A DNA stretch of 64,000 nucleotides from Vermamoeba vermiformis (lineage: Eukaryota): the NCBI GenBank assembly GCA_045837725.1, contig JBEWZL010000091.1:1-64000 (forward strand), given 5' to 3'. How positions within the stretch are numbered: the stretch's first letter is position 1; each line of letters starts with the position of its first letter. A model generated the notes under the pieces. That model was given only the letters and a program-made list of their open reading frames with translations. It ran no database searches and had not been told where the DNA came from. Made by a program: the position numbers and the translations under genes. Below, piece by piece: positions 1 to 58,500 of the stretch.

Positions 1-595
1 ATTTCGCAGTCGACTGTAACAATAAAATTACGTTTTTCAACATAGAACGACCACACTTATATCTTAAAGTTATATTTCTGTACAAAGTGGTCCCTGAATT
101 GACGGCAATTGATGCGAAGTGCCGTAACTTTTGGTTGGTAAGCCAGATGCTGGATTTGTTTTTTCTGATCTTCGCATCACAACAAAATTAACGACTAATT
201 CCATCGCGATAAATCATAATATTAATAATAGAGTGCCTCGTAAGCAATTACAAGCACTTTTGAATTATTTTGAATTATTTTTTAAAATTAACGCCTCCGA
301 TCTGTTCGGCCATTGTGCTGCAACTATTCGGGTCGTACTTTCGATTTGTAACACTCTTATTAATACAATCTTATTGATAGGTGTGCGACTTCATATTGAG
401 AAGATTTTGTACAGGCGATTTAGGGGACCCGGACTCTATTGTTTGAGTTTTTTCTGCCATCTTTGTAAACAAATTCCAGTAAATTTCGCACAATAGTGGT
501 GAGTTATTATCACTTTATACATGGCTAATGATTACTCAGTTTATTTTTGATGTGTTAGATCCGAACCACACGCGACCTCGAAAAGTGCCTCGGCA

Positions 596-3533
596 ATGGC
601 CAAAGTAGTAAACCTTGGTGCCACATGCTACATTAGCAGTTCTTTACAGCTATTATTTAGTATTGAAGCTTTCCGTGAGCTTGTTATATCATCAAAACCT
701 ACACACAAACTTGCGATTGAATTTCGACAGATTATCACACTTATGAAGAGTAATAAAACAATTCATATCGAACCATTAACAAGGCTATTGAAAATATCAA
801 AAGCAAGCTACCAAAAAGAACACCGTGATTTACAAGAGTTTCTGCTCAATTTATTGGACAAGTTAACTGAAGACTCTGAGTTCAAGCGAATTATAAAGCA
901 AGTTTTTGGTGGTGCCTTACAACGTAATGGTTCAGAATTAATGGAGCCTTTTATAGGTACAAATGACTGCTGCAACTCGACTTAATTTCAATTGACTTTA
1001 TAATTTAGATATTTCAATTCCAGTTGCCCCCGGCAATGTTGTGGACAGTTTAGTTCAACTTTTCAGCAGTGTACGTAACATTTGCATAAGACTTGGATTT
1101 TAACTTATTCAATGATAAGGACTGGGGTTCACACAAATTTTTGACATTCCCCACTGCATTAGTCCTCCACCTTAAGCGTTTTGATAATCTGGGCAACAAG
1201 AATGAAGCGAAGTTTCACTTCAAGTCAACTCTAGTTATTCCAGCAAAGCTCAGTTGTAGTGGTCATGCAGAGACCTACCAACTCAAATCAATAATAGTGC
1301 ACCAAGGAACTGCTAAACAGGGTCACTACGTAACCTACAGCCTTGCGAACAACCAATGGCTTGAACTCAATGATGCAGTCGTCTCAAAGGTAGTCAAAGT
1401 ATGCCATTTTGCAGGTTCTAACCTCAATGTAGGCTCCCAAAGACTTCATGCAGAGGTTATTTGAGGGAATTGCAAGTGCTTATATCTTAGTGTACTGCAC
1501 ACAGCGTATTTCATCCCCAACCAAGTCCAGACCCACACGAATTATTGGAAATGAATCACAGCAATTTAATGATTTTATGGAATGGGACTCAACATCATGT
1601 CAAAGTGATCCAATAGAGATATCAGATAGTGAATATGAAGCAAACGAAAGTGATGATATGAGTGAATCAATTGAAGAAGATAATGAAGAGACATCAGAAG
1701 TCGCAAGTCCTGCAGCAGTGAAAGAAGGTATTGATTTCTCATTCATTAATCATTTTGATAACCATTACTGGCAGCTAAACTTCAAGCAAAACTGTCTGGG
1801 TGGAAAAACGATGGGAGTAAATTCAAGCCCAAAACTTCTCAACCATTGACAAACCCAGGACCAAAGCACCAGCTCATCTTAACAAAAATTAATGCAATAC
1901 GTCATCAACTGGGAAAGCCAAAACTGTCTTCAACACTACGTGTCACAGAGCTTGACTGTTACTTACTTATGATGAATGACATAATTGAACATATTGAAAA
2001 AACAACAGATGCAAATCTGCACATCAAAGCAGTCGATTTGCGCGCTTATCTTGGTGTTAGAATTGCACAACAATTATTGCCAGGTCATTCTGTTGATGAC
2101 TCTTGGGCCTCCTTTTTGCATTCACGCGCCATGTGGGGCAACAGGTGGATTGCTAAAACAATGCTAAAAGATGAATTCAAGTTTATACACCGGAACAAAA
2201 AGTAAGTTCGTTGTTCACTCACTGTAATGGTTCTTACCTTTGGTCTTAGGTATGATGTGTACTTTGTTTGGGCAGCTCTGAATCAAACCTACTCAGAAAT
2301 ATGGGTGCCATTCAGCCACCTTGCTTTAGATGATAAAGCAAATGCTTGGAAAGGAAGGTCAATTTACAAGATTTACAGATTACGCAAGCCATTCCCTTGG
2401 GCAATGTTAGAATATGTCATTATTGATGAAAGTGGATGGATGTCTGGCTTCATTCCTCGATATGGACTGTTTGCTACCATAACAGACAAGTTCAAGAAAT
2501 GGCGAGAGTTATATCACGCCTTCAAAACAGGTCAACTTTCGCAAAGACCTCTACCATTTAAAACAATGTTTCCACGAGCATCAAAGACAAATTTCGATTT
2601 GGAAAAAGCCGTCAGTTTTTTATTGTCAAGACTCCCTGACAAACAAAGGCACGTTTATGACTTTATTAGAGAACCCACAAATTATGAAGAATGGAACAAT
2701 CTGACAACTCGAAACTTATCACACTATCATGTATTTTGTGACAGAGAGTTTTCCTCACTATGGCAGCACCTGCAAAAGCACAATATTGGATACACTGTTG
2801 GCATTATTGGAACATCACACCCTAACCTGTTTCAAAACAACCTTGCTCATTGTTTACAGCCAGGACAATGGCGCAGCTTAACAAACGACTCAGATATCAT
2901 CATGTCATTCTATGACCCTCAAGGCAAGACCTGTCACTGGGCTAGTAATCGAGGAACAGCAGCCTCAATTTCTGAAAAAGTAATTGATGGAAACAAAAAG
3001 AAAAAGCTTGCATACTCTGCTCCCCACTTGGTGCAACAATATCGGACATACTTCAGTTCTGTGGATAAGCATAACTCCAAAGCCAAGAAGTTTAAGTGGC
3101 CCTACCGGATTCGAAAAGTAACAGAGCGCTTAGTATTTGCAGATTGGGAGCGCTCTGCTCAAGTTCAGGCAGAAACACTCTTCAAAAGACTCACCAACAG
3201 TGATATTCCTGCCAAGAAATTTCTTGCCAATTTAGCGCGCTCCCTGGTAGAGGAATTCCAATCAAAAAGGAAACGAAACTACACAATAGAAGCGTTAGAT
3301 CTTGTGCGCGCCAGTGGAAAGCATAATCCATACACCCACACCTGTGCGTACGAATTTGGCAACTCCAAGCGTTGTTTCTTTTGTCAAACTCAAAAGATAT
3401 CTTCTTCTACACTGTAAGTATGTGTAGGTGTACTTTTGTCAAACTAATTAATTGCCTTAGCTACAAGTGCATTCAGTGCAAAGTTGCCTTACACAAGAAG
3501 TGCTGGAAGAAATTCAAAGGTGTAAATCTTTAA
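596..3533 (+). CDS. Fusion protein (~886 aa): N-terminal ubiquitin-specific protease (peptidase C19), acidic linker, piggyBac-like transposase with C-terminal Cys-rich domain
   Basis: GT-AG exons 596-956, 1009-1070, 1120-1398, 1433-1727, 1775-2201, 2250-3413, 3461-3533 join in frame. USP motifs: NLGATCY, DLQEFL..LLD, LVLHLKRF, IIVHQG...GHY, WLELND, AYILVY. piggyBac motifs: LALDD..WKGR..KIY...KP, HVFCDREF, P.LV..Y.....VD, and CFFC...CIQC.VALHKKC. Alternative last intron 3522-3574 would give ...KGHVTRCGVA* ending at 3601. Confidence 0.85.
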
Positions 3534-3571
3534 GTTTTGTACAAGGAGTTATCAGTTAACTATTGTGTGAA

Positions 3572-3839
3572 TAGCATGTAACACGTTGTGGTGTAGCATG
3601 AGCACGAAAGTGCCTGAGGCGGCTTTGACGCAAAAAACCTCGTGTGTAGGCACTGAGAGTTTGGGGATAGTCAGCTTGCTTCAGATTTATTCACATAATC
3701 ACCTGCTAGGCTAACTGTTAGTAGCATGTAACACGTTGTGGTGTAGCATGAGCACGAAAGTGCCTGAGGCAGCTTTGACGCAAAAAACCTCGTGTGTAGG
3801 CACTGAGAGTTTGGGGATAGTCAGTTTGCTTCAGATTTA
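3572..3839. repeat. Tandem direct duplication: 118-bp copies at 3572-3689 and 3722-3839 (150-bp period)
   Basis: TAGCATGTAACACGTTG...TCAGATTTA occurs twice with two mismatches. Confidence 0.95.
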
Positions 3840-3944
3840 CTCAACAGACGATAGCCTGGGCTACTATTGAGCTTATTTATGAGAAATGGGAGCAGCCATG
3901 TCCAAATTCTGGTACGTCTACCGTGTAGACTTCCAGTTGGTTAA

Positions 3945-5180
3945 GGAATATTTGTAATTGTCAAGCAGGGCCAATAACGAATTCAACACTGGCCATAACA
4001 CCGCTCGAAATTTTTCTAAGAAAACTCCCATGTTATTACTATTCCATCAATATAAAAAATGATCGTGCTGTAATTTAGCGAACAAATACGAAGATTTTTT
4101 TGTCGGATCTGGACTTTTCATAAAATGATCCTTACCATTAATAGAACCACATTGCAAGCAGGCAAACAATTCACATCGATACGCCAATGTGTTCATTAAT
4201 TGCATGCGATTTTCAATCTCCGAGGCTTTTTGTAGCAGCAGATCTGGCACTCCTTGTTCAGCGAGCAAATCCAACAACTCTTCGACTTCAAGTATGTTCC
4301 ATAACCAATCTATAAATATCGATAAGTATTAAAACCGCCAGCTTCGCACTATTAATAGTAATAAAAGAGAAAATAATTCATTTTTAAGCGTAGAAAAATC
4401 GTACGAAATCCGGATTTCGCATGTCTTTCGTCAGAATTGACCAGTGATGTTATCAACGGCAATGCTCCTGCCCGAATAATCTCCATGTGAAGCTCACCTA
4501 TATATAATAGTTATATTAATCATTCATTTGGTCGCTGCGGATCTTCAATGATTTTTTGACGCAGTCATTTTTTCTACATAAGAAAAATAATACTATATTT
4601 TTCTACAGACTTACTTGCTTCGCCAAAATATCTACATGCTGATATTAATGTGTCGCGCAGATCTTTATTCTGCTGAGCTGACTTAATGCCTTCAATTAAT
4701 ATTTTTGGTCCTTCTTTTTGAACGAAGTACGATTTGATGCTTCCTTTTCCATTAATAAATTAATTTATGAGGCTATAAAATATTTTTGTGCGATTTGGAG
4801 TCCAACAAACAAGAACAAGCGAGATCTGTATTTTAAAAATCCAATTGATTGAGAAATTAATTAATTTAATTGATAATAATTTGGCAACCCCTTAAGTATA
4901 CTTACTAACCCTTGCATCTCTAAACGGTAGAAATAACTTGTTTGCTAAATTCACTGCTACTTCTTCTAATTTTGTTTCGTCGGAAGAGGAGCTTAATATT
5001 ACCAAAATATTATCAATATTATCCTTATCTGCTTGAGATAAAGTATAATCAGCCTTCTGCGCTTCCTCCTTCCTATAAAAAGTATTTTCCGAGTTGAATT
5101 TATTCGTTGGAGGCTACAATAACAATAAGAAGCTTCAATGATACAAGACGACAAATTAACTAATAAATATACTCTTTTTC
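3945..5180 (-). pseudogene. Possible degraded spliced gene of unknown function next to the transposon end
   Basis: Minus-strand exon-like segments (PPTNKFNSENTFYRKEEAQKAD..., LLAEQGVPDLLLQKASEIEN...) bounded by GT/AG. No clear start codon, and stops appear near 4040. Confidence 0.3.
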
Positions 5181-11172: not shown

Positions 11173-14070
11173 ATGTATAAACTCGTATTATTTGGCGCTC
11201 TTTGCGCGTTCTACCTCGCTGGATCGTGCGTCGCGCAAGTGCCTCAAGTCTGCGTGCAGCCATTTGCCTTTCCTGTTCCAATCTGGCTCGGAGAAAGTAA
11301 GTACTAGAGCGATAAATATTTGTATAATTTCAACTTGTAACGCAAAATGCTCGCTGATTCTTTTTGGATGCAGTTCCGATCTTATTTTCGAACTCACCGT
11401 AATTGCAAAATTGAGAATTCTAGAATACTGATATTTATTTAGATGGTACTGGACCTGCGTGCAGCAAAGGATTTTATTGTCCTTTTATCGTTGAAAGCAA
11501 TAACGCAACTTGGCCATCCGTGTGCCCGCCAACAGTCAATTGCACAGTCACGAGATTATCAGGAAATTTATGCGAAGCTCAAGGACTGTTCGAGCCAATA
11601 GTGTGTCCAGCTGGCTATTACTGCCCTGATTTTAGAACGAAGACGATCTGCCCCGAAGGACATTTCTGTCCTTTAGGAACGGTCGAACCTTATGTCTGTG
11701 AGGCAGTTAGCGAGTGTCCTGAAGGGTCGAGTCAACGGCGATATTGGGGAGCGCTCATTATCATCGCGTGCGTGGATGTGGGTCTTGGCGCACTTCTATT
11801 CGCGTACCTTTTTACTCGTCAAAAGAAGGCACAAGCACATAGCAAGCGATTCAAACTCATTGAACCGAGCGCTGGAGGTGATCACGGCCATACAGAGTCG
11901 TTAGAAACAGTTGTGCAGATGAAGCCAGCTGTTGCAGTCCTCGTCGATGGATTCGCTAGATCTCGCGGAAACTCACCAGCACTCGACATATTCTTTGAAG
12001 ATTTACGACTCACCTTGCCCAAGAAGAACAAGACACTGCTGGCAGGCGTCACTGGCTCGATGAAAGCAGGCAATATGACCGCTATCATGGGCCCGTCAGG
12101 TGCTGGAAAGACGACCTTTATCAGCACTCTGATGGGCAAAGTGAACGCGTCCTGGGACAGATCTGGCACGTTGAGTATCAACGGCGTCGAGACCACGTGC
12201 TCGGCTATCAAATCATCGATCGGATATGTCCCGCAAGAAGACATCATGCACCGCGAACTGACGGTCTGGCAGAACATTTGTTACTCTGCTGACACTCGTC
12301 TGCCGCCTAGTTGGACACGAGAGGAGCGTTATGCATACTGTGAAAGGTAAGCCCTGATCATATCGAATGTTTGGCCGAAAAATCCTTGTTTCAAAGAAAC
12401 CAGATCCGATTGATTTGATTTCTCGCTTAATTTTCTTTGAACCGTTAATTATGCACATCAAACCAAATAATTATTTCTATATATGGAATAATGTATTATT
12501 ATCTAAATGTCATTAATTTAAAACGCATCTGGCTTTTAGCTCGTTGTCTAACTTTTATTGTTACAGTATCTTGGAAGTGCTCAATCTTCAGTCAGTCAAA
12601 TATCAGCGCATTGGCAATGAAGAAAAGAGAGGCATTAGCGGTGGTCAACGAAAGAGAGTCAACATTGCGATCGAACTCGCAGCAGCACCCTTGATCTTGT
12701 TTTTGGACGAACCAACTACCGGTCTCGACGCATCAGCGGCGCTAGAAGTCTGCGAGATTTTGAATAAGATTGTCAAGCTGACTAATATCAACGTGGCTGT
12801 CGTTATTCATCAACCGAGAATTGAGATCTGGAACTCGTTGGACAATCTTTTGATCTTGGCACCAGGCGGCAGAACGGTCTATTTAGGACCTCAAAAATAC
12901 GTTCAAGAATATTTCTCAAAGCATCTCGGTCTTCAATTCCAAACTTTTGAAAATCCAGCGGATACGTTAATGGATGCGATCTCAATCAACGGCTCTGCCT
13001 ACGCTGACAAATGGAAAGATGACGGCAGCACTCTCTTATCGCAAATGATCAATAAGAAAGTACCGCCACCAGTTCCACCTCGCCAGAACAAGAGATTCAG
13101 CAAAACAGTCGAAGTTTTTGACGCTTATGCAGTGAACCACGGCTACAATTATCAATTTGAAGAACGAACAGACACACAAGAGATGCATGTTAATATAGAG
13201 ACGCATATAGGAGACTACAGCAACTTCAGTTTGACAGCGATCTCGAAGAGATCTGGCGCGACGTGGATCCGTCAATTGTTGCTCAGTCACGTCCGTTCAG
13301 TGAAACAACAAGCCGTCAACTACCAATCACTATTGATCGAGATGGCACTCTCGACACTTGCAGGCATTTTGATCGGAATGTCAAACACAGACACGTACAA
13401 AGGCGTGTTGAAAGGCAACTACGTGCTCATCTCACCGACACCAGCAGAATTCGTTATTCCGCTCAAAGGCCTCTTTATCAACCTTGCTATTGGTCTCGCG
13501 GCTTCAGCAGCAGGCGTGCGAACCTTCGGCGATGAACGCGTGATTTATTTCCGCGAAACAGCGTCTGGCCATTCACCGTCCGCGTACTACTTGGGCGTGT
13601 CACTGTCAGTCTTGTATCGCATCTTCATCATGGCACTTCACTTTGCCGTGCTATTCTACGTCGTTGGCATGCCCATGGCGTCGCTAGGCCACATCTACGC
13701 GATTTGTTTTGGTGTCTATTTTGCCGTGTACGGACTCGGTGCCATCATCTCAATGATTTTCAAACGCGAAGACGCACCGTTGACAGCTGTCATTGCGACA
13801 CTTGTAGCAGCGATCATGTCGGGATTCATCAACGTGTTTCCGCTCGGTCTCAAAGCAGTCTCATACGCGTTTTGGAGTGGCGAAGCATTTTACTCGGGTG
13901 AAGTCAAGCCATTCAGCAACATTTACGACCTGAGTGTGGCAAAAGATGTGTGGGACTACGATCTCGAGCGATTTGACGGTGATATTGTGGCAGTCGTGTT
14001 TTATGGTGTGGCTTATCGAATGATTGCGTACGTGTTGATGATCATGCTCAACAGAGACAAGCAAAAATAA
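11173..14070 (+). CDS. ABCG-family half transporter with signal peptide and Cys-rich extracellular N-terminus (ADP1/plant ABCG24-28-like architecture)
   Basis: ATG 11173 signal peptide; C..G.YCP repeats; TM helix; Walker A GPSGAGKTT; signature ISGGQRKR; LDEPT; IHQPR; C-terminal multi-TM domain. Confidence 0.92.
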
Positions 14071-14109: not shown

Positions 14110-16583
14110 TTACATTTTTTTCAACATGTTAAGGCACTCTTGAATTGTTGGTCGTTGTTCTGGTTCTGTTTTGCAACACATCATGATCAACTCACAAAGC
14201 TGATCATCAGCCACATTATCCCTGATCCTCTTCATTCGTTTACTTTCATCTCCAATAATTGGCAGAACTGTATTTGTGCACATTTCATAGAGCAGCACTC
14301 CAAATCTAATTAAACTTGTAAGGACTGTAACAGTGAATGATACTACATACGAATATATATCAGCACTTTGATTGTAGGGTTCCTCAGCAAGTATTTCAGG
14401 TGCCATAAAGTAGTTAGTGCCAGCAACAGTGTTAGCAAGTGATCTTTCATTCAAAAATCGTGAGTGACCAAAATCAGCTATCTTTGCCAGTGTTTTTCCA
14501 TTAAAAAGCTGTAATGGATTAATTGAATTGTTTAATTCAAAAATTTGACATACCAAAACATTTGCACTTTTAAGATCACGGTGTAGAACATGTAGTCTAT
14601 GAAGGTATGCTAGTCCAGAAGCAACATCACAAGCATAAGATAGGATGTCCTTGCAAGGTAGCTTGACCTTTTGTTTGTGAAGGATGTCATACAGTGAGCC
14701 ACCATCAGCATACTCCATGATCAATGAAATTTCAATATCTTTGCCAGTACACAATCCAAATGGAGTTATTATGTTGTCATGACAAAACTTCCTATAGAGT
14801 GAGTTAGTTACAGCAAGAAGTGCTAAATTACTCACATTAATGTCATCACTTCACCAACAAATTTATCATCATCAAGTGCAATTGGTCTCTTTAGAGCTAC
14901 TTGTTTCCCATTCCAATCAGCCAAATGAACTTCACCAAATCCACCTTTGCCAAGCAGTTTGCTAACTTTAATATCTTTGTGTGGAATTCCTTTAATTATT
15001 TCATCTCTTATTCTCTCTTTTTCTGTTAACCACTCTTTGTTATCTGGCTTTAATTCATAAAATAAGCTGAAGTCAATGTAAGCTTTGTGTACCATATTCA
15101 ATGCATTATGGACTCTAGCACGTATTAATATAGTAAATTCATCGTTTGGTTCAAGTTGATCAGCTCTATTCAGATCCTCCAATGCTCCTTTGTAATTGTC
15201 AAGCATTTGCTTTGTTGCTCCTCTACATTGTAGTGTAAATGCATTATTTGGTTGAAGTTGATCAGCTCTGTTCAGGTCATCCAGTGCTCCTTTGTAATCA
15301 CCAAGCAATCGTTTTGTTTCTCCTCTACATTTTAATGTAATTGCATCATTTGGTTCAAGTTGATCAGCTCTGTTAAAATCATCCATTGCTCCATTGAAAT
15401 CACCAAGTAATCGTTTTGTATCTCCTCTATATTGTAGTGTAAATGCATTGTTTGGCTCCAGTTGATCAGCTCTGTTCAGATCATCCAATGCTCCTTTGTA
15501 ATCACCAAGCATTCGTTTTGTATCTCCTCTATATTGTAGTGTAAATGCATTATTTGGTTCAAGTTGATCAGCTCTGTTAAAATCTTCCAATGCTCCTTTG
15601 TAATTATAAACCATTATTTTTGTTGCTCCGCTCTGTTGTAGTGTAAATGCATTATTTGGTTCAAGTTGATCAGCTCTGTTCAGATCATCCAATGCTCCTT
15701 TGTAATCACCAAGCATTTGTTTTGTATCTCCTCTATATCGTAGTGTAAATGCATTATTTGGTTCAAGTTGATCAGCTCTGTTAAAATCTTCCAATGCTCC
15801 TTTGTAATCATCAAGCATTCGTTTTGTATCTCCTCTATGTCGTAGAGTAAGTGCATTATTTGGTTCAAGTTGATTGGCTCTATTAAAATCCTCCAATGCT
15901 CCTTTGTAATCACCAAGCATTTGTTTTGTTACTCCTCTATATTGTAGTGTAAATGCATTATTTGGTTCAAGTTGATCAGCTCTGTTCAAATCTTCCAATG
16001 CTCCTTTGTAATCATCAAGTAATCGTTTTGTATCTCCTCTCTGACATAGTGTAAATGCATTATTTGGTTCAAGTTGATCAGCTCTGTTCACATCCTCTAA
16101 TGCTCCTTTGTAATCATCAAGCAATCGTTTTGTCACTCCTCTTAATTTAAGTGTAACTCCATCATTTGGTTCAAGTTGATCAGCTCTGTTAAAATCCTCC
16201 AATGCACCAGGGTAATTTTTAACCACTAGCTTCAAGACCCCTCGCATGGTTAGCATCCCTGGATCATTAGGGTCTAATTGAGATGTTCTATCAAAATCTA
16301 CTCTGGCTCCATCATAGTCGTTCATCACTCGCTTCACATCCGCACGACATGAAAGAGTGAACACATCGTTAGGGCACAATTCATCAGCTCTGTTGAGGTC
16401 TGATAGTGCTCCATTCAAATCACGCAATATCCTCTTTGTGTTTCCTCGCCACTTGAGAATGTTAGCGTTGTTGGGATCGAGTGCGCTGGCCTGTTCAAAA
16501 ACTTCTAGTGCCTGACCGAATTCTTCCGCTTCGTATTTTTGAATTCCAAGCTCCAACAAATCAGTAATGCTAATTTTCTCCAT
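14110..16583 (-). CDS. TPR-repeat array + TKL-type protein kinase
   Basis: About 15 34-aa TPRs, then GKGGFG, VALK, HRDLKSAN, DFG, APE. Short introns only in the kinase part. Confidence 0.95.
15130..16215 (-). repeat. Coding tandem array of ~10-11 near-identical 102-bp units (TPR)
   Basis: TTTGGTTCAAGTTGATCAGCTCTGTT...AATGCTCCTTTGTAATC recurs every 102 bp. Confidence 0.97.
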
Positions 16584-16933
16584 TATTACTTGATTTTAAC
16601 GTTTCTGCAATCCGGTTTTTGGCCAAAGATCCAAATTACCAAGATCTTTGAATAAAAGTAATTAATACATTTTCCGTGGCTAAAAAAATTAGAATAGGAA
16701 TAATTCGGTATACTGGCTATAATTTTAACATACAAGCACAAGAAAATAAACCGAATTAATTTTGGATCATAACGTCAAAGTCAATTATTACTCACCCCAG
16801 CGATAACGAAAAAAAGGATTGTATCTTTCGAACTGAAATTTATTGCGAGGTGTCGGTGTGGTTGTGGCGTGCTTATGAACATTAAAAGAAACAAAAATCT
16901 TTACACGTCTCGTACCCAACGTCAAATACCACA

Positions 16934-17800: not shown

Positions 17801-20143
<2,343 letters not shown>

Positions 20144-48094: not shown

Positions 48095-51000
48095 TTACGA
48101 GAACAAGTCAATCAAGTCATCGGCAGTCAGCTTGGTGGAGATTTCGGACTTGCGCAGAGCTCCTTCAGCGAGCTTTCTCTTCTTTTCTTGCAGCGCGAGA
48201 ATGCGGTCTTCGACAGAGTTTTGTATGGTGAATCGGATCACGTGCACAGGTTTGGTTTGGCCGACACGATGCACACGGTCAATGGCTTGTTCTTCAGCTG
48301 CTGGATTCCACCAAGGATCCAACAGGAATACGTTGTTAGCTTCAATCAAGTTCAAACCAAGACCTCCTGCCTTCAGAGACATGAGCAGAATGGTGATGTC
48401 CTCTTTCTCTTTAAAGGCGTCAATTTGTTGTTTGCGCTTTTGAATATTCATCGAGCCGTCCAAGCGAGAGAATGTCCAACCATGCTCTTTGAGCGGGTAT
48501 TCAATCAAGTCTAACATGCTCGTCCATTGGCTGAAAATAATGGACTTGCACTTGGGATCTTTTTCTTTAACTTTCTTTAGCTCTTCCAACAACGCTTTGA
48601 CCTTTGTGCTCGATTTAATGGCTCGTCCAGGCATTACGTTGAAAGATCCGATATCAATGTCCAAGTTGTTTGATTTGACGACGTAAGGCTTCATCGAATC
48701 CTCCTTCTGCGGAACAGTTAATTTCACGAAGCAAGAGAGCGTACAATTACTTACCAAATCAGCATTGCACACAGGACAAGCAAAACTAGCAGTGCCCTTT
48801 TCGATCTTAATTTGATTGGTGTTGTTTGCCGTTGCATCGGACTTTGGGTCGTCATCAGTCTTCTTCGTCTTGACGCACGACTTGCAGAACACGTGCTTGC
48901 ATGAACTGATGACGGGGTCTTCAAGTACGTCATTGCAAACTGGGCACACCGTCACTGCACTCTCTTTGGAGTCGTCTTTCTTGGTTTCAGCTTCTTTTTC
49001 TTGGGGTTTATCGTCCTTGCTCTTCTCATCTTTCTTCTCATCACTGTCGTTGTTGTTGCTTGACTTCTCGGGCGTCGTATCTTTCTTGCCTTTCATCTTG
49101 CTTCCTTTCTCGGTTGTCTTTTTGTTCTTGCTTGCGCGCGTTGTGACTTTAGTCTTCTTTTCCTCGACATTACCAAGGAGCACTTGTCCTTTGACTGCTA
49201 AATAGGGGTGATCGCAGGCTTGACGTAGCCTCAGCAACAGCACCAAGATGTGCGTGTAGTTTTGAATAATAGTGCCTGACTTGACATAGTCATCGAATTC
49301 GACTTTGGACTTGGCATACATGGCTTGATAAATATCGTCCTCCTGCAACAGCGAAGTTAGTGTCTTGTTTTGGAAGGTCGTGATTTATGTTACTAGTCGT
49401 ACCTCTTTAGAGAAGGCATCGGCTCTAAGGATGACGTTTCGTTCAGGAAGTGTTAGGATTGGTTTGCCATCAATTTCCATGTCCTTAGTTCGGCAGATCA
49501 AAATTGGATGCAAAATCGATTGAAGCAAAGCAAATCCCTTTTGAGTCAATCTGTCGGCAATAGATGACTTCCAGAACGAGTAGTCAGCGTAGGGACTGTA
49601 CTGCAAGAACTTCAACAAGCTGTACAAGTCGTCCAAGCTGTTTTGGATGGGAGTGCCCGTCATAGCCCATCTTTTCTTGGCATCGAGAGCGCAACACGCA
49701 CGTGCTTGACGCGTCGCTCTGTTTTTGATAGAGTGCGCTTCGTCTAAAACAACGCGGTACCATTTGACTTTCTGTGAAGGACCAAGCGGATCCGTTTCCA
49801 CTAAGGCAATGAATTAGCAACTGATTAATAGTTAGCCTAAAATATACCTTTGGGGTACTCGCTCGCAATTGTAGCATACGTGCTGATAACAACATCGTAT
49901 TCTGCGAGTTCTTTTGCACTCTTTGAGCGTGTTTGTCCGTGGTGAATTCTCACTTTGCTGTGAGGGTTGACGTTAGCATGTTTGGACTTGATGTTTGAGG
50001 TACTTACAAAAGACCATCAGCGGACTTGGTGGTAATTTCTTTGTACCACTGACTGACGCAAGACAACGGGCAGATAATGAGCGTAGCTTTGCGTTTGGGG
50101 TCTGGTTGTTTGGCTTTCGATTTTCCTTTGACACGCTCGGCTTCAGCAGCGGGAGTATTGTGGATGATGCACGAGAGCATTTCACTGGAAGAGTCGTTAG
50201 TTATCCTGAAGGACCAGACCATAAGAAATAACATACATAGTTTTGCCCAAACCCATTTGGTCCGCAACAATGCCACCAGCAGGCTCCATGCCCTCTCGCT
50301 TCGTCATCCACGCAAGCGCTTGTTTCTGGTACTTGAACAGCGGAACTTTAAGATCTTTCGGCGTATCGAGTTCGTCTTTGAGTTCTTTTGGACTCTGCAA
50401 GATCTTATTGACGAGGGACTGCACTGGTTGGGAGGTGTATTGCGGTTGTGCATCAATGCGAAGAGGAGCTTCGGGTTTGTTGGAAATGCTCGGTACTGCG
50501 TGCACATTGTTAGATTGACTCCACTGAGAACGAAAACGACTTACGGTCGGGAGTGTGAGTCAGCAGATCAGTTGTAAGTCCAGACATCATCGTTGAAGAC
50601 AAGATTGACGAGATGGAATCAATGCTCGGCAACTCTCCCGAGGCTGTCGAGTTCGGTGAATTACCAAACGAAGTTGTGGACATAAGTGGCTTGGACCCTA
50701 GATCGTGCCATCGTTAGCAAAAAAGAAAGTAATCCTTGGGCTAACGTACGTTTTGAATCTTGTGCTGCGATAAAAGAGGCCCAGTCTGTCTTGAACGGAT
50801 TTTCGTTGCCAGTAGTTTCAGTAAACGCTGAAACAGAATTAAGTTAGTTTAACGAAGCTGCACAGGTTCGCATCATACGTTTCTTTACGGGTATACTATG
50901 ACCACTGCCGATATTGAGTTCAATGTGCCTTGGCGGCGCTGGATCCAACTGAACGAGACCTTAGCGCCAAATGCCTTATAGAATTAGTACTTACGAATGG

Positions 51001-55548: not shown

Positions 55549-58500
55549 ATGGCCAGCGAAAAGAATGTAAATAGTACGGACGCTAAAGGCGGAGAGGATT
55601 TGCCCGTGGATGTTTCCAATCAAAGGCTCACAAAATTGCCGAATTGGGTCTACAACTCGCATGCCCTGTCCATGCTGAATGCGAAGAATAACAAGTTAGC
55701 TAGACTAGGCAAAAAAATATTCAAATTAACGCGACTGACGCACTTGAACTTGCGTAACAATAATTTGAAGAAGTTGACGCGAGGAAATAGACTGGGTATC
55801 GAGAAGTTAACGTCACTACGGTATTTGGATCTGGGTCAAAATCAACTATCTAGATTACCAGTATCTATAGCGCAATTGGCCCGATTAGATTCTCTCAGTA
55901 TTGATCACAATCATTTAACACAGGTACGGCGCCGAGATCTCGCTGAGTAAATTACGATATTAATAACGGTATTTTTATAGCTTCCTCGAGAGATGGCCAC
56001 AGGGTTATCTAGACTACAGATACTTCATTTGGATTACAACAACATCGGCCCTACTTTGTTCAGTGCGACCAAAGCACGTGAATCTTTTGACGGAGATGAC
56101 AGTTCGGAAGAAGACGAAGAAGAGCCGATGCCAAATCAAACTATTATAACCGCAAATGGAGAGGCGTTTGATATTAGCACGAGCTGGAGTTCAACTCTGA
56201 AGCATCTAAGCGTTTCTTGGAACAGGCTAGTCGAATGCCCGGATGGCTTGGCACGTTTGGCGAGCTTGACTTACTTAGATCTCAGTCACAACCAATTGCG
56301 AGAGCTGCCTGACGACATTGGAAACTTGAGTCTCCTCCACACTCTAATCGCGAGCAGTAATCCGATCGAAACGCTTCCCTCGACCCTTCACAAGTTACAC
56401 AATTCATTGCACACGCTGCACTTGGACTACAATAGGCTTCAGTTCATACCTCCTCAAGTTTATCAACTTACTAAGCTTGCCGAATTGAAACTGAACAACA
56501 ACTTGATCGCTGAAATTGGTCACAACATTTCGCAACTGACGTCATTGAAGGTGCTGCATTTGAATGACAATAGAGTGCGCTACATCCCATTTGAACTCAC
56601 AACGCTACCCGTGGTTCAAAGCGCAGTAGTCGACGTCTCAACAGGCATTCCGCTGACAGATATCAATCAACACGATATTCACAGCATTTTGTCGATGTCT
56701 GAGGAGACTCTGAGTCATAGCAACGAAGCAACTTTTGCCGTGCATCTCGAAGGCAATCCTCTGGAAGACCAAATCCCGCGCGAAGTTCTTAAGCTCGGCA
56801 ATGCTGCTGTGATCTCATTCGTGCGATCAATCAATCAATCCAAAGCAAAGTGGCGCCGTGTCAAGCTGATGTTTGTTGGAGAGGAGAACGTAGGAAAGTC
56901 GACCTTGTTACGTATCTTGACCAGCAAGTTCTCGTCGGATTCTGCGGCCTCCAATTCAGCACAAGGAACAGGCTCCGAGCCTTCGATTTCCAATACTGTA
57001 TCGGTGCTCAACTTACTAGGCTCGTCATCTGCTCCCAGCATACCCGTATCACTAAGTGCTGAGGTACCTACTCCACGTGACTTGAATAAGAAAGCTACAG
57101 TGCGAGACCTTGGCAATTCAGCGGAGAAAAACAAAGCAACTGACGGAATCAAGATTTACGATTGGTTGCCTGAGATGGACGAAGACATAACGAGCACGTT
57201 ATCGCCCGAACAGATGGAAGACCTCAGCAAATATCCGTTGGTTTATTCTTGTTGGGACTTTGCTGGACAGGATGTGTATGTATTTTGATTATTGTTACAG
57301 CAATACGTTTACTAATAATACAAACAGGTACTACCCGACGCATCAATTTTTTTTGAGCGGCCGTTGCATCACATTGCTGATGTTCAACTTGACCGATGTT
57401 AAAGGATCTCGCATCGAGTACTGGTTGAAGGCGATTAAACAACGAGCTGGTGTTGGAGTGGGAGCTCCTGCTTGTCTATTAGTGGGTACTCACCGCGATG
57501 ACAAAAGAGTTGCTGACGAGCGCATTTGGACCGACACTTTGGCCAAGCTGAAGCAGAAATATCAAAGCAAATTCCCGTTCATTAAGGGCTACTTCGCTAT
57601 CAGTTGCAAGAGCTTCAAAGGCATTCGAGAGTTGAAGAACAAAGTCCTCGACTTGACGCTCAGCTCTCGTGTTATGTCACAGCAAGACGTGCCACTTGGT
57701 TGGGTCATGCTTGTCGATCACATCAAGCGAAAGAGACAACAAGAGCAAATAATTAACGTGGCACAATTCGCTCAGTTCGCACGATCATGTGCCGGTGTGG
57801 AAGTACCAGATATTCCGACGTTGGTACGATTCTACAACTCTGTTGGTATTCTGTCATTTTTCGATGACACTAGCGACGACGCGCAATTTTTGAAGTTCAT
57901 CAATATCAACAAACAGCCCAGCAAGAGCACCATGTTAAACGAGTTGGTCATTTTAAATCCTCAATGGATCGCCGATTTGATGTCGACTATCATCACAATC
58001 AAGCACTCGTTTGCAAAGGACGGTGTGTTGATGGAGTCAGATCTGCCTCAGATATGGCGAGACTATCCCACGGCCATGTACGATGCACTGTTGAACCTGC
58101 TGGAGAAGTTCGAAGTGGCTTACAGACTAAGAAATTCCAATTTGATTGTCTCACCTGCTATTACTTTCTTGGCGAAGCTACCAATGCGCTACGAACGAAT
58201 CAAACGCAAGAACAGACCTGGACGTAGCAACACTGTGTTTGCACTCAATTATCAAGACCCAGAAGTACCGGATTCAACAGAAGATATGACCGGTGGACGC
58301 GAGAGAAGTGGCACTGTCATCGTTCATGATTCATTGCCGCCATTTGATATGAGTGCCCTGGAGAGCCCGCCAATCAATGACATTACTAACTCGGTCACGA
58401 AATCTCCTCGGGATAGTCCACTTCGAGAGGCAAGAGATGACGCGGGGTTGAAGAAAGCAACGAAAGGCAGCGCTGCAGTTACACGCACGGATCGAAGCAA

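What the first reader, a model, noticed from the sequence alone, without database searches (positions are those of the whole stretch)
596..3944. piggyBac-like transposon whose transposase is fused in-frame to an intact ubiquitin-specific protease
Seen: seven GT-AG exons join without a frameshift into one ~886-aa ORF. The N-terminal part keeps the USP Cys-His-Asp triad (TCY, GHY, ND). After an acidic linker comes a transposase with all three piggyBac Asp motifs (LALDD, FCD, SVD) and a Cys-rich tail, and a GG|TTAA end lies at 3940-3944. Known: Ulp1 and OTU proteases occur as cargo in several DNA transposon groups; I do not recall a USP (C19) fused to piggyBac. Inference: the element may carry its own deubiquitinase to protect the transposase from degradation, or to strip ubiquitin marks from chromatin or silencing factors. 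It could be an undescribed piggyBac lineage.
Basis: partly seen in the sequence, partly recalled or inferred. Interest (0 to 1): 0.88.

Follow-up and report, generated by a model that had tools for sequence, protein, structure and literature searches.

The report
USP deubiquitinase fused to piggyBac transposase
An intron-rich eukaryote carries an expressed, evolutionarily conserved gene that joins a ubiquitin-removing enzyme to a piggyBac cut-and-paste transposase, a pairing I could not find described, but nothing yet shows that it still jumps.

Summary
Seven GT-AG coding exons (596-3533, + strand) join into one 883-aa frame. The frame encodes a minimal USP/C19 domain with its Cys, His and Asp, an acidic linker, a piggyBac DDD transposase and a Cys-rich tail.

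Spliced contigs of run X8 confirm 3 of the 6 coding introns and two 5'-UTR introns. The USP/transposase junction 1727/1775 was not covered. It rests on comparison: metagenome contig L001 encodes an intact 887-aa protein with the same six intron positions. Synonymous sites are saturated, yet both domains are conserved. The transposase's conserved N-terminal motif has no ATG of its own.

The transposon reading is not shown:
- No left inverted repeat lies within 595 nt (window) or 522 nt (L001) upstream of the ATG.
- Depth looks single-copy.
- Homology runs 7 nt past the TTAA.
- The conserved 3' non-coding region carries RNA-type covariation.

I lean slightly to a resident, piggyBac-derived fusion gene (0.5) over a still-mobile element (0.38).

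Deubiquitinase or Ulp domains on other transposases are known. A USP on piggyBac was not found in eight literature searches or in the protein collections. I rate it a new variant of a known kind.

The parts
51..137 (+). 5'-UTR exon a. The start is a lower bound; the transcript may begin further left or outside the window.
   Evidence: The X8 contig joint 136/137 to 380/381 has 86 letters lying left of the joint. Boundaries were re-read. It holds one upstream ATG opening a 14-codon uORF. It is not conserved with L001 (z -0.2).
138..380 (+). 5'-UTR intron (243 nt, GT..AG). It contains the only conserved 5' block (about 138-300), with two exact AAAATTAACG motifs at 184 and 284.
   Evidence: Joint in X8. 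Window 130-300 against L001 108-280 gives z = 6.2 over shuffles. Motif search; alignment.
381..498 (+). 5'-UTR exon b.
   Evidence: X8 contig piece 380-498. Its loose end after 498 equals window 559-572.
499..558 (+). 5'-UTR intron (60 nt, GTGAGT..AG).
   Evidence: Loose end of the X8 contig located at 559.
559..956 (+). Coding exon 1, ATG at 596. USP Cys box (Asn6, Cys11) and the N-terminal half of the USP core.
   Evidence: Pfam UCH 59 bits. USP34 alignment. Model.
1009..1070 (+). Coding exon 2 (62 nt). USP segment FIDISIPV...; finger region without zinc-binding Cys.
   Evidence: Model. Same 62-nt exon in L001. The donor at 1070/1071 is confirmed by X8 joint 1070>1120.
1120..1389 (+). Coding exon 3. 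USP His box (His210, Asn225-Asp226).
   Evidence: Pfam UCH 65.3 bits. Ubp8 alignment. X8 joints 1070>1120 and 1387>1431, cut +2.
1433..1727 (+). Coding exon 4. End of the USP core (AYILVY) and the acidic Ser/Asp/Glu-rich linker.
   Evidence: Model. No Pfam family on the linker. Its composition is like the acidic N-terminus of the stand-alone relative P0004.
1728..1774 (+). Intron 4 (47 nt, phase 1). This is the USP/transposase junction and is not covered by any RNA contig.
   Evidence: X8 depth is 0 in bin 1651-1800. L001 has an intron of the same position and phase. If retained, the frame stops at 1849, or after two codons in L001.
1775..2201 (+). Coding exon 5. Transposase N-terminal domain (GW..G..F / GP..IL..IN motif onward).
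   Evidence: It aligns from its first codons with the N-terminal region of the stand-alone relatives P0004, P0006 and P0008. There is no in-frame ATG before the motif. X8 joint 2201>2250.
2250..3413 (+). Coding exon 6. piggyBac catalytic core (D499, D636, D744) and the start of the Cys-rich tail.
   Evidence: Pfam DDE_Tnp_1_7 43.3 bits. Invariant Asp in 8 of 8 sequences. Profile hits to piggyBac 6x67 (E 1.1e-7) and piggyBat 9c0f (E 1.9e-6).
3461..3533 (+). Coding exon 7. End of the Cys-rich tail and stop codon.
   Evidence: Model. 22 of 24 residues match L001. The region 831-883 is the most conserved part, at 83% identity.
3572..3872 (+). Two tandem 150-nt units in the 3' non-coding region, each with a conserved predicted fold (three hairpins plus a long closing stem).
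   Evidence: Repeat of 128 nt at 96%, period 150. The same array occurs in L001. 30 pairs, 120 of 120 cells paired, 8 pairs with changes on both sides, 0 of 500 shuffles reach this. Covariance model hits at 3572-3721 and 3722-3872. No Rfam family.
3913..3951 (+). Terminal conserved block: palindrome GTCTAC-CGT-GTAGAC (3916-3930), CCAGTTGG, TTAA (3941-3944), GGAATAT (3945-3951).
   Evidence: 35 of 39 nt identical to L001 3813-3851. Similarity stops at 3951; the next 400 nt give z = -0.4. The X8 contig leaves the window at 3953.

Best explanation
The locus is one real gene. Its mRNA has at least nine exons (two 5'-UTR, seven coding) and encodes a single 883-aa protein with four parts:
- a trimmed but catalytically complete USP (C19) deubiquitinase, residues 1-255;
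- an acidic linker that looks like the transposase's own N-terminal tail, about 256-345;
- a complete piggyBac-type transposase with the DDD triad, about 346-830;
- a Cys-rich DNA-binding tail, 831-883.

Shown: the frame; both domain assignments; splicing of 5 of 8 introns; conservation of the whole architecture in a second lineage under purifying selection.

Inferred: I read it as a low-copy, resident gene derived from piggyBac. It would be domesticated or nearly so, in the manner of SCAN-PGBD1 or CSB-PGBD3, and not a currently jumping element. The transposase module with its Cys-rich tail would bring the protein to specific DNA, and may still cut it. The tethered USP would then remove ubiquitin locally. 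Its substrate could be the protein itself (protection from the proteasome) or chromatin and repair factors at the bound or cut site.

The conserved, base-paired 3' UTR modules would act on the mRNA, for example on stability, export or translation control.
For: Frame and domains. Foldseek on a low-confidence model (mean pLDDT 54.7) ranks piggyBac and piggyBat chains 1-3.

Transcription and splicing: X8 contigs, 6 of 6 at 99% identity or more, show joints 136>380, 1070>1120, 1387>1431 and 2201>2250, plus a loose end that bridges 498>559.

Fusion:
- L001 has the same seven coding exons, the same phases and an intact 887-aa frame.
- pS is about 0.80 (saturated), against pN 0.35 for the USP, 0.23 for the core and 0.11 for the tail.
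- Exon 5 aligns from its start with the N-terminal motif of stand-alone relatives and has no ATG before it.
- Retaining intron 4 ends the frame in both species.

Resident gene, not an active element:
- No inverted copy of the right end in 595 nt (window) or 522 nt (L001) upstream of the ATG.
- No second copy in 60 kb.
- X2 depth is 3.4-5.8 over the gene against 4.4-5.1 in the flanks.
- X2 is identical to the window through 4090-4189 to the right of the gene, which suggests the same site in that strain.
- Only three close protein clusters (P0001 with 5 members, P0002, P0007) among about 15 billion proteins.
- Eight introns and an N-terminal added domain are, in the 2017 piggyBac survey, traits of domesticated copies (PMC5381638, passages read).
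- Similarity with L001 runs 7 nt past the TTAA.
- The 3' non-coding conservation (z = 18.3) carries compensatory pair changes, and 19 of 120 paired cells are G-U. This fits an RNA on the sense strand.
Against: - The DDD triad and the Cys-rich tail are intact, and the tail is the most conserved part (83%). An active transposase needs exactly this.
- The last 39 nt before position 3951 are 90% identical between lineages whose synonymous sites are saturated. They have the layout of a piggyBac end: a short terminal sequence, then a palindrome, next to GG|TTAA.
- Similarity with L001 ends abruptly, and the 528 nt of L001 downstream match nothing in the window, so synteny is not shown.
- The X8 contig leaves the window at 3953 for 58 letters found nowhere in 64 kb. 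A copy at another site would do this.
- X2 holds extra depth (27 against about 5) over 3751-3900, from diverged copies of the 3' module.
- Deubiquitinase or Ulp domains recur on mobile transposases (PMC2836005, PMC9741609).
- The left end may simply lie outside both sequences.
- No enzymatic activity was tested.
- Junction 1727/1775 has no RNA evidence.
Confidence: 0.5

Rival explanations
1. It is a still-mobile (or very recently mobile) autonomous piggyBac-like transposon. Its transposase carries its own USP deubiquitinase. The right end lies at 3940-3953 and the left end upstream of the window. The USP would protect the transposase from ubiquitin-dependent degradation, or would edit ubiquitin marks on chromatin or repair factors during excision and integration.
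For: - Intact DDD triad and a highly conserved Cys-rich tail.
- A conserved terminal block with palindrome and GG|TTAA, after which similarity to L001 vanishes (z = 18.3 inside, -0.4 outside).
- Subterminal direct repeats, which the piggyBac survey reports in many elements, some of them palindromic (PMC5381638, passages).
- The X8 contig diverges at 3953 into sequence absent from the window.
- Extra depth from diverged copies of the 3' module in X2.
- No synteny with L001 downstream.
- Precedent for deubiquitinase or Ulp domains on transposases: Ginger1, MULEs, Helitrons, and a C19 domain with a pfam01609 transposase in T. vaginalis (PMC2836005 and PMC9741609, passages).
Against: - No left inverted repeat in the sequence available.
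- Depth looks single-copy, and the right flank is identical in strain X2.
- No other copy in the window.
- Sequence shared with L001 (7 nt) and with X8 (9 nt) continues past the TTAA. A TTAA-bounded element at different sites should not do this.
- A 3' UTR-like RNA covariation pattern.
- Eight introns.
- The extra X2 depth could come from related organisms in the same metagenome.
Confidence: 0.38
2. The USP and the transposase are made as two separate proteins, from neighbouring genes or alternative isoforms. In this reading the single 883-aa frame is a by-product of the model.
For: No RNA contig covers 1651-1800, so junction 1727/1775 is unobserved. If intron 4 is retained, a USP-plus-linker protein would end at 1849. 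In-frame Met405/Met406 exist inside the transposase N-terminal domain.
Against: - Only 47 nt separate the two parts.
- L001 has an intron at the same position and phase, and the frame is kept across it.
- The transposase motif GW..G..F / GP..IL..IN, conserved in stand-alone relatives, lies upstream of the first possible Met and directly after the acceptor.
- The acidic linker matches the acidic N-terminal tail of stand-alone relatives.
Confidence: 0.07

Closest known systems
piggyBac (Trichoplusia ni) and piggyBat transposases (PDB 6x67/6x68, 9c0f)
   Same: DDE_Tnp_1_7 core above Pfam's cut-off. D499 and D744 align with the solved enzyme. There is a C-terminal Cys-rich tail. The right end has a short terminal sequence followed by a palindrome next to TTAA. 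The layout of TIR plus 19-bp sub-terminal repeat is as quoted in PMC5381638.
   Different: Very divergent: only 37 proteins at E <= 0.001 among 1.84 billion representatives. There is a longer insert between the first and second Asp, an N-terminal USP domain, six coding introns, and no second end seen.
Transposases carrying ubiquitin-like-modifier proteases: Ginger1 (OTU or Ulp1), MULEs (Ulp1), Helitrons/Helentrons (OTU, VTD)
   Same: A papain-fold isopeptidase is fused to, or encoded within, the transposition protein. The proposed roles are protection from degradation or action on repair and chromatin (PMC2836005 and PMC9741609, passages read).
   Different: The protease class differs (USP/C19, not OTU, Ulp1 or VTD). 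The transposase superfamily differs (piggyBac). The domain is N-terminal here, but C-terminal in Ginger1.
Trichomonas vaginalis XP_001314237.1 (pfam01609 transposase + Peptidase C19)
   Same: This is the only earlier mention I found of a C19 ubiquitin hydrolase joined to a DDE transposase. It is one sentence in PMC2836005, citing Gladyshev and Arkhipova 2009.
   Different: It is an IS4/IS5-type pfam01609 domain, not DDE_Tnp_1_7. I could not see the protein or the cited paper, which is not held, so the likeness is untested.
Domesticated piggyBac fusions: SCAN-PGBD1 and CSB-PGBD3
   Same: Upstream exons coding for a host-type domain are spliced in frame to a whole piggyBac transposase, in a single-copy gene. 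Sources: PMC5381638 passages; PMC3459987 and PMC2268245, seen as search listing and start of abstract only.
   Different: The partner is a deubiquitinase. The DDD triad is fully kept. One piggyBac-like end is conserved across deep divergence. Synteny is not shown.

Membership tests
piggyBac superfamily transposase (Pfam DDE_Tnp_1_7, PF13843) | Profile match above the curated cut-off | tested here: met
   Exon 6 scores 43.3 bits against a cut-off of 22.4, E 3.8e-11. Exon 5 scores 15.3 bits, below the cut-off. The profile of 8 relatives hits piggyBac 6x67 (E 1.1e-7) and piggyBat 9c0f (E 1.9e-6); these are the only 2 PDB sequences at E <= 1.
piggyBac superfamily transposase (Pfam DDE_Tnp_1_7, PF13843) | Catalytic Asp triad at the conserved positions | tested here: met
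   D499/D500, D636 and D744 are invariant in 8 of 8 sequences. The first and third align with the HLTIDEQ and GVDTLDQ stretches of 6x67. The second was not aligned to a solved structure.
piggyBac superfamily transposase (Pfam DDE_Tnp_1_7, PF13843) | C-terminal Cys-rich DNA-binding domain | tested here: inconclusive
   A Cys/His pattern is present (C837, C847, C850, C863, C866, H871, C874). It aligns to the tail of 6x67. There was no hit to zf-Tnp_2, only RING- or C1-like scores below the cut-offs.
piggyBac-like transposable element (mobile) | Terminal inverted repeats at both ends | tested here: not met
   Only the right end is seen. There is no inverted copy in window 1-595 or elsewhere in the 64 kb (18-mer, up to 3 mismatches, 1 match which is itself), nor in L001. 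The left end may lie outside both sequences.
piggyBac-like transposable element (mobile) | TTAA target-site duplication bounding the element | tested here: inconclusive
   TTAA lies at 3941-3944 after GG. However, similarity to L001 continues 7 nt further and identity to the X8 contig 9 nt further. The left side is not available.
piggyBac-like transposable element (mobile) | More than one copy, or presence/absence polymorphism | tested here: not met
   No other copy in the window. X2 depth over the gene equals that of the flanks, and no empty-site joint was reported. Extra depth is confined to 3601-3900. No whole genome is held.
Ubiquitin-specific protease (peptidase C19, Pfam UCH PF00443) | Profile match above the cut-off over the Cys and His boxes | tested here: met
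   59 bits on model positions 3-129 and 65.3 bits on positions 142-239 of 254, against a cut-off of 23.9.
Ubiquitin-specific protease (peptidase C19, Pfam UCH PF00443) | Catalytic Cys, His and Asp/Asn, and the oxyanion Asn | tested here: met
   Asn6 and Cys11 align with NLGATCY of USP34. His210 and Asn225-Asp226 align with GHY and ND of Ubp8. All are kept in L001.
Ubiquitin-specific protease (peptidase C19, Pfam UCH PF00443) | Full finger sub-domain that holds ubiquitin | tested here: not met
   Three gaps totalling about 60 residues against the 318-327-aa USPs P0045 and P0047, and no CxxC pairs. Substrate could therefore differ from ubiquitin. No fold could be predicted, because the domain is split over four exons.
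Ubiquitin-specific protease (peptidase C19, Pfam UCH PF00443) | Isopeptidase activity | not testable with these tools
   Needs an enzyme assay.
Domesticated piggyBac-derived gene (PGBD type) | Single copy at a syntenic site in different species | tested here: inconclusive
   Depth is single-copy-like and the right flank is the same in strain X2. The 522 nt and 528 nt flanks of L001 show no similarity to anything in the window outside the gene.
Domesticated piggyBac-derived gene (PGBD type) | Purifying selection on the coding sequence | tested here: met
   pN is 0.11-0.42 against a saturated pS of 0.68-0.90 in all five segments. This is also expected of a long-lived active family, so it does not discriminate.

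The most novel reading that the evidence does not exclude
This is a living piggyBac lineage whose transposase brings its own USP-class deubiquitinase, which would be the first C19-piggyBac element. It would have an unusual right end: the TTAA is internal to the conserved terminus and the shared sequence ends at ATAT/TT. It would also have two tandem base-paired RNA modules in the 3' UTR that the element needs in cis or for its mRNA. That would tie ubiquitin editing, and possibly an RNA component, to cut-and-paste transposition.
Probability: 0.3. Interest if true: 0.8.

Novelty: new variant of a known kind. Interest (0 to 1): 0.6.

Why it matters
Isopeptidases for ubiquitin-like modifiers (Ulp1, OTU, VTD) turn up again and again on unrelated transposons. 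Why mobile DNA needs them is still open, and only the VTD domains have been assayed (PMC9741609). A USP welded to the well-understood, widely engineered piggyBac transposase would give a tractable test. The Cys mutant could be compared with wild type in standard excision and integration assays.

If the gene is instead domesticated, it would be a natural DNA-targeted deubiquitinase. That would be a new kind of host use of a transposase.

The family is rare, with three close clusters among about 15 billion proteins. It would have been missed by prokaryote-style gene calling, which reports only the single-exon transposase piece.

Tried and rejected
- Whole-genome search: no genome is held for this window.
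- RNA runs X21 and X23 (raw reads carrying the species label of the best DNA holder): 0 reads laid on 1-4500, so this is no test. No listed holder is on record as RNA.
- Left end: 18-mer with up to 3 mismatches, repeat finders and terminal motifs in the loci gave only the right ends. A weak gapped likeness to the inverted end inside intron 4 (around 1757-1774) has no counterpart in L001, and I dropped it as chance.
- Palindromic 'empty site' idea (the 7 nt after the TTAA mirrored before it): 0 matches in the window. TTAAGGAATAT is unique.
- Relatives in IMG/VR and in 185,579 prokaryote genomes: none. The terminal 18 specified bases gave one hit in each collection, L004 in a Leucothrix genome and L005 in a viral contig. 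Both lack the palindrome and the following bases and are chance matches.
- Longer (679-2000 aa) relatives of exon 6: none of 2899 candidates at E <= 1e-5. USP exon 3 profile, longer proteins: 4 of 258 candidates, all USP-only at 36-37% identity.
- Earlier findings of this scan: nothing by place, sequence or words.
- Rfam on 3400-4100: only a chance snoRNA-like score of 15 bits against a gathering score of 50. Covariance model R1 found only its own four training copies in 71 kb.
- Structure of exon 6: mean pLDDT 54.7, too low to read. Foldseek still ranks piggyBac and piggyBat first, but with TM 0.19-0.25.
- The USP domain could not be folded because spliced products cannot be handed to that tool.
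- I first read the X2 contrast (1 difference in 1-3573 against 14 substitutions and 2 deletions in 4190-4423) as a sign of recent insertion. I rejected this because identity continues to 4189, about 245 nt beyond the TTAA.
- Gladyshev and Arkhipova 2009 is not held. Supplementary tables of the piggyBac survey were not seen; they may list elements with extra domains.
Full report
WHAT IS THERE

Reading 1-4800 and joining exons by coordinates gives seven coding exons on the + strand: 596-956, 1009-1070, 1120-1389, 1433-1727, 1775-2201, 2250-3413 and 3461-3533. The six introns are 43-52 nt and all GT..AG. The joined frame is 2652 nt, or 883 aa, and ends in TAA.

Pfam finds:
- UCH/PF00443 on exon 1: 59 bits, model positions 3-129.
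- UCH/PF00443 on exon 3: 65.3 bits, positions 142-239. The cut-off is 23.9.
- Nothing on the acidic linker.
- DDE_Tnp_1_7/PF13843 on exon 6: 43.3 bits against a cut-off of 22.4.
- DDE_Tnp_1_7 on exon 5: 15.3 bits, below the cut-off.

Against solved structures, exon 1 aligns best with the USP34 catalytic domain (7w3r, E 7.3e-10), Cys box on Cys box. Exon 3 aligns with Ubp8, USP36 and USP7, with GHY and ND in register. The catalytic set is Asn6, Cys11, His210 and Asp226.

Compared with two 318-327-aa USPs, the domain lacks about 60 residues in three gaps of the finger region and has no zinc-binding CxxC pairs. It is complete at the active site but trimmed where ubiquitin is held.

In the transposase, D499/D500, D636 and D744 are invariant in 8 of 8 aligned relatives. 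A profile of these 8 hits only two PDB sequences at E <= 1: piggyBac (6x67, E 1.1e-7) and piggyBat (9c0f, E 1.9e-6). The first and third Asp motifs and the Cys-rich tail align. An AlphaFold model of exon 6 was poor (mean pLDDT 54.7). Foldseek still put piggyBac and piggyBat chains at ranks 1-3, but with TM only 0.19-0.25, so I give that little weight.

IS IT ONE GENE?

One run search and one lay were allowed.

Two raw RNA runs with the species label of the best DNA holder gave 0 reads, which is no test.

Run X8 is labelled a guess at RNA. It gave 6 contigs, all at 99% identity or more. Their discontinuities are exact GT..AG introns:
- 136/137 > 380/381 (243 nt).
- 1070 > 1120.
- 1389 > 1433.
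- 2201 > 2250.
- A loose end after 498 whose letters are window 559-572, giving a 60-nt intron at 499-558.

So the gene is transcribed. It has two 5'-UTR introns, and coding introns 2, 3 and 5 are as modelled. Introns 1, 4 and 6 were not covered; X8 depth is 0 in 1651-1800. The junction that makes the fusion (1727/1775) therefore has no RNA evidence here.

It is supported by comparison. A scan of metagenome contigs with an alignment of relatives (166 pattern matches, 3 confirmed loci) returned L001, a 4379-bp contig collinear with window 595-3951. Modelled the same way, L001 has seven coding exons with the same phases. Exons 2, 3 and 7 have identical lengths. The introns are 39-54 nt, and the frame is an intact 887 aa.

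Protein identity by segment is 49% for the USP, 43% for the linker, 62-65% for the transposase and 83% for the Cys-rich tail. The proportion of synonymous differences is about 0.80, which is saturated. Non-synonymous proportions are 0.11-0.42. Both halves have been kept by selection, together, for a long time.

Three further points favour one protein:
- Retaining intron 4 stops the frame after 41 codons in the window and after 2 in L001.
- Exon 5 aligns from its first codons with the N-terminal GW..G..F / GP..IL..IN motif of the stand-alone relatives P0004, P0006 and P0008. There is no in-frame ATG between the preceding stop (1759-1761) and that motif, so it can only be translated through exon 4.
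- The acidic linker resembles the acidic N-terminal tail of P0004. The USP thus appears to have been added in front of a complete transposase.

I put two separate proteins at about 0.07.

HOW COMMON IS IT?

HMMER against 1.84 billion representatives found only 37 proteins at E <= 0.001, and 6 at E <= 1e-30. The close ones are P0001 (66%, 415 aa), P0002 (53%, 300 aa) and P0007 (57%, 142 aa). P0001 is the exon-6 frame of an L001-type contig. All three are single-exon calls on contigs of 4.4 kb or less; the P0001 cluster has 5 members.

The next relatives (P0003-P0006 and P0008, 26-32%) are stand-alone transposases. Of 10 homologues scanned, 10 carry PF13843 and 0 carry PF00443.

Other searches:
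- No protein of 679-2000 aa matched exon 6 at E <= 1e-5 (0 of 2899 candidates).
- In the near length class only P0001 and P0002 matched (2 of 1675).
- The USP exon 3 profile found 4 USP-only proteins at 36-37% identity (4 of 258).
- Nothing turned up in IMG/VR or in prokaryote genomes.

The fusion is thus confined, as far as these collections show, to the window's lineage and L001's lineage.

TRANSPOSON OR RESIDENT GENE?

Evidence for a transposon:
- The triad and tail are intact.
- The 418 nt between the stop codon and 3951 are conserved far above shuffles (z = 18.3). The next 400 nt are not (z = -0.4), and the introns are only weakly conserved (z 1.3-4.3).
- The last 39 nt are 35/39 identical. 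They read as palindrome GTCTAC-CGT-GTAGAC, then CCAGTTGG, then TTAA. This recalls piggyBac's TIR plus sub-terminal repeat, as described in PMC5381638. That the Cys-rich domain binds that repeat is my recollection and comes from no call.
- The 528 nt of L001 downstream match nothing in the window.
- The X8 contig leaves the window at 3953 for 58 letters found nowhere in the 64 kb.
- Metagenome run X2 has depth 27, against about 5, over 3751-3900. This comes from contigs whose loose ends look like diverged copies of the same region.

Evidence against a transposon:
- The predicted left end is absent from the window and from L001. The repeat finders show no inverted partner.
- At least 595 nt and 522 nt upstream of the ATG, including two introns, lie inside the transcription unit without any end signal.
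- No second copy or fragment lies in the other 60 kb, which hold ordinary host genes.
- X2 depth over the gene (3.4-5.8) equals that of the flanks (4.4-5.1). X2 is identical to the window in 4090-4189, right of the gene. The cluster of 14 substitutions and 2 deletions begins only at 4190, so it marks a haplotype switch and not an element boundary.
- Similarity with L001 continues 7 nt beyond the TTAA (GGAATAT), and identity with X8 continues 9 nt. Independent TTAA insertions would not share that.
- The bases at 3954-3955 are GT, so the X8 break may be a splice.
- In the 2017 survey, multiple introns and added N-terminal domains mark domesticated copies (PGBD5, PGM, TPB2, SCAN-PGBD1, CSB-PGBD3). 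Sequences with one TIR or none were classed there as PGBD-like (PMC5381638, passages).

Weighing these, I lean slightly to a resident, low-copy piggyBac-derived gene (0.5) over a still-mobile element (0.38). The question is open because the left boundary lies outside both sequences.

THE 3' NON-CODING REGION

Both species carry two tandem 150-nt units: window 3566-3693 and 3716-3843 at 96%, L001 at 89%.

RNAalifold on the four units predicts 30 pairs in four helices. All 120 cells are paired, and 8 pairs change on both sides. Some of these changes are between the two L001 units.

In the count with controls, 0 of 500 shuffles reach the observed pairing, double changes or covariation score. Versions slid by 1-3 columns pair at 25-52%, with 0-2 double changes. 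One caveat applies: the structure was derived from these same four sequences, which are only two lineages.

Nineteen of the 120 cells are G-U. The + strand also folds more stably than the - strand in 4 of 4 units: -51/-49.9 against -37/-38.5 in the window, and -43.3/-38.3 against -32.6/-28.5 in L001. Only the window units have notable z-scores (-3.1 and -2.3).

This points to an RNA fold in the sense transcript and not merely a DNA-binding array. There is no Rfam family, and the covariance model finds only its four training copies. Two further small hairpins with wobble or compensatory changes lie between the units and the end.

WHAT IS KNOWN

Ulp1 and OTU domains on Ginger1, MULE and Helitron proteins are described in PMC2836005, which also has one sentence on a T. 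vaginalis protein joining pfam01609 and Peptidase C19 (passages read). The paper it cites is not held. VTD deubiquitinases in Helitrons, with activity shown, are in PMC9741609 (passages read).

Eight searches found no USP-piggyBac fusion. Supplementary tables were closed and might list one.

VERDICT

The fusion is real and conserved. Mobility is unproven, and the balance is slightly against it. It is a new variant of a known kind: a transposase with a modifier protease, or a piggyBac-derived fusion gene. Interest 0.6.

Noticed in passing
window 3572-3872; L001 3494-3793: Two tandem 150-nt units in the 3' UTR share a predicted fold: 30 pairs, all 120 cells paired, 8 pairs with compensatory changes, many G-U pairs, and the sense strand more stable. 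No Rfam family matches. This may be an undescribed structured RNA module.
   Followed up: partly
window 138-300 (5'-UTR intron); L001 about 115-280: This is the only conserved 5' block (z = 6.2). It holds two exact AAAATTAACG motifs 100 nt apart (184, 284), with the same spacing in L001. There is only one other exact copy in the 64 kb. The UTR exons around it are not conserved.
   Followed up: partly
window 3861-3953: An RNA-type contig of run X8 follows the window to 3953 and then continues for 58 letters that occur nowhere in the window on either strand. 3954-3955 is GT. This could be a splice to an exon outside the window, another insertion site or a structural variant.
   Followed up: partly
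window 3601-3900: Metagenome run X2 shows depth 8.7-27.7, against about 5 elsewhere. There are three variants at 3767/3771 and loose ends at 3734, 3831 and 3871 that resemble diverged copies of the same module. These may be extra copies in the genome or related organisms in the sample.
   Followed up: no
window 4190-4423: X2 is identical to the window up to 4189. It then differs at 14 positions plus two small deletions within 234 nt. This looks like a switch between divergent haplotypes about 245 nt right of the TTAA.
   Followed up: no
window 3534-4200: There is no AATAAA or ATTAAA on the + strand after the stop codon, so the 3' end of the transcript is undefined.
   Followed up: no
window 596-955 (USP exon 1): In the protein-atlas feature search, the three nearest clusters are short UCH-domain proteins whose few labelled members are mostly Nucleocytoviricota (scores 0.94-0.96). 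This is a lead only. It hints that the trimmed USP resembles giant-virus USPs.
   Followed up: no
window 11424-61199: The rest of the window holds ordinary eukaryotic genes with short introns: an ABC transporter (11424-14070), a TPR protein (14110-16595, -), a TPP enzyme (18132-19516, -), a Na/H exchanger, a P450, a RING/helicase (48095-49384, -), a SAM-domain protein and an LRR-Roc-COR-kinase (55981-61199). No other transposon-like frame was noticed.
   Followed up: partly
P0003-P0006, P0008; L002: The transposase belongs to a small, divergent piggyBac sub-lineage with a long insert between the first and second catalytic Asp. Its other members are stand-alone proteins of 472-648 aa with an acidic N-terminus and no USP.
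   Followed up: partly
runs X21, X23 on window 1-4500: Two RNA-seq runs carrying the species label of the best DNA holder gave no read at all on the gene or its neighbour, while a run labelled as another organism (X8) holds near-identical spliced contigs. The species labels and the true source of the window may not match.
   Followed up: no
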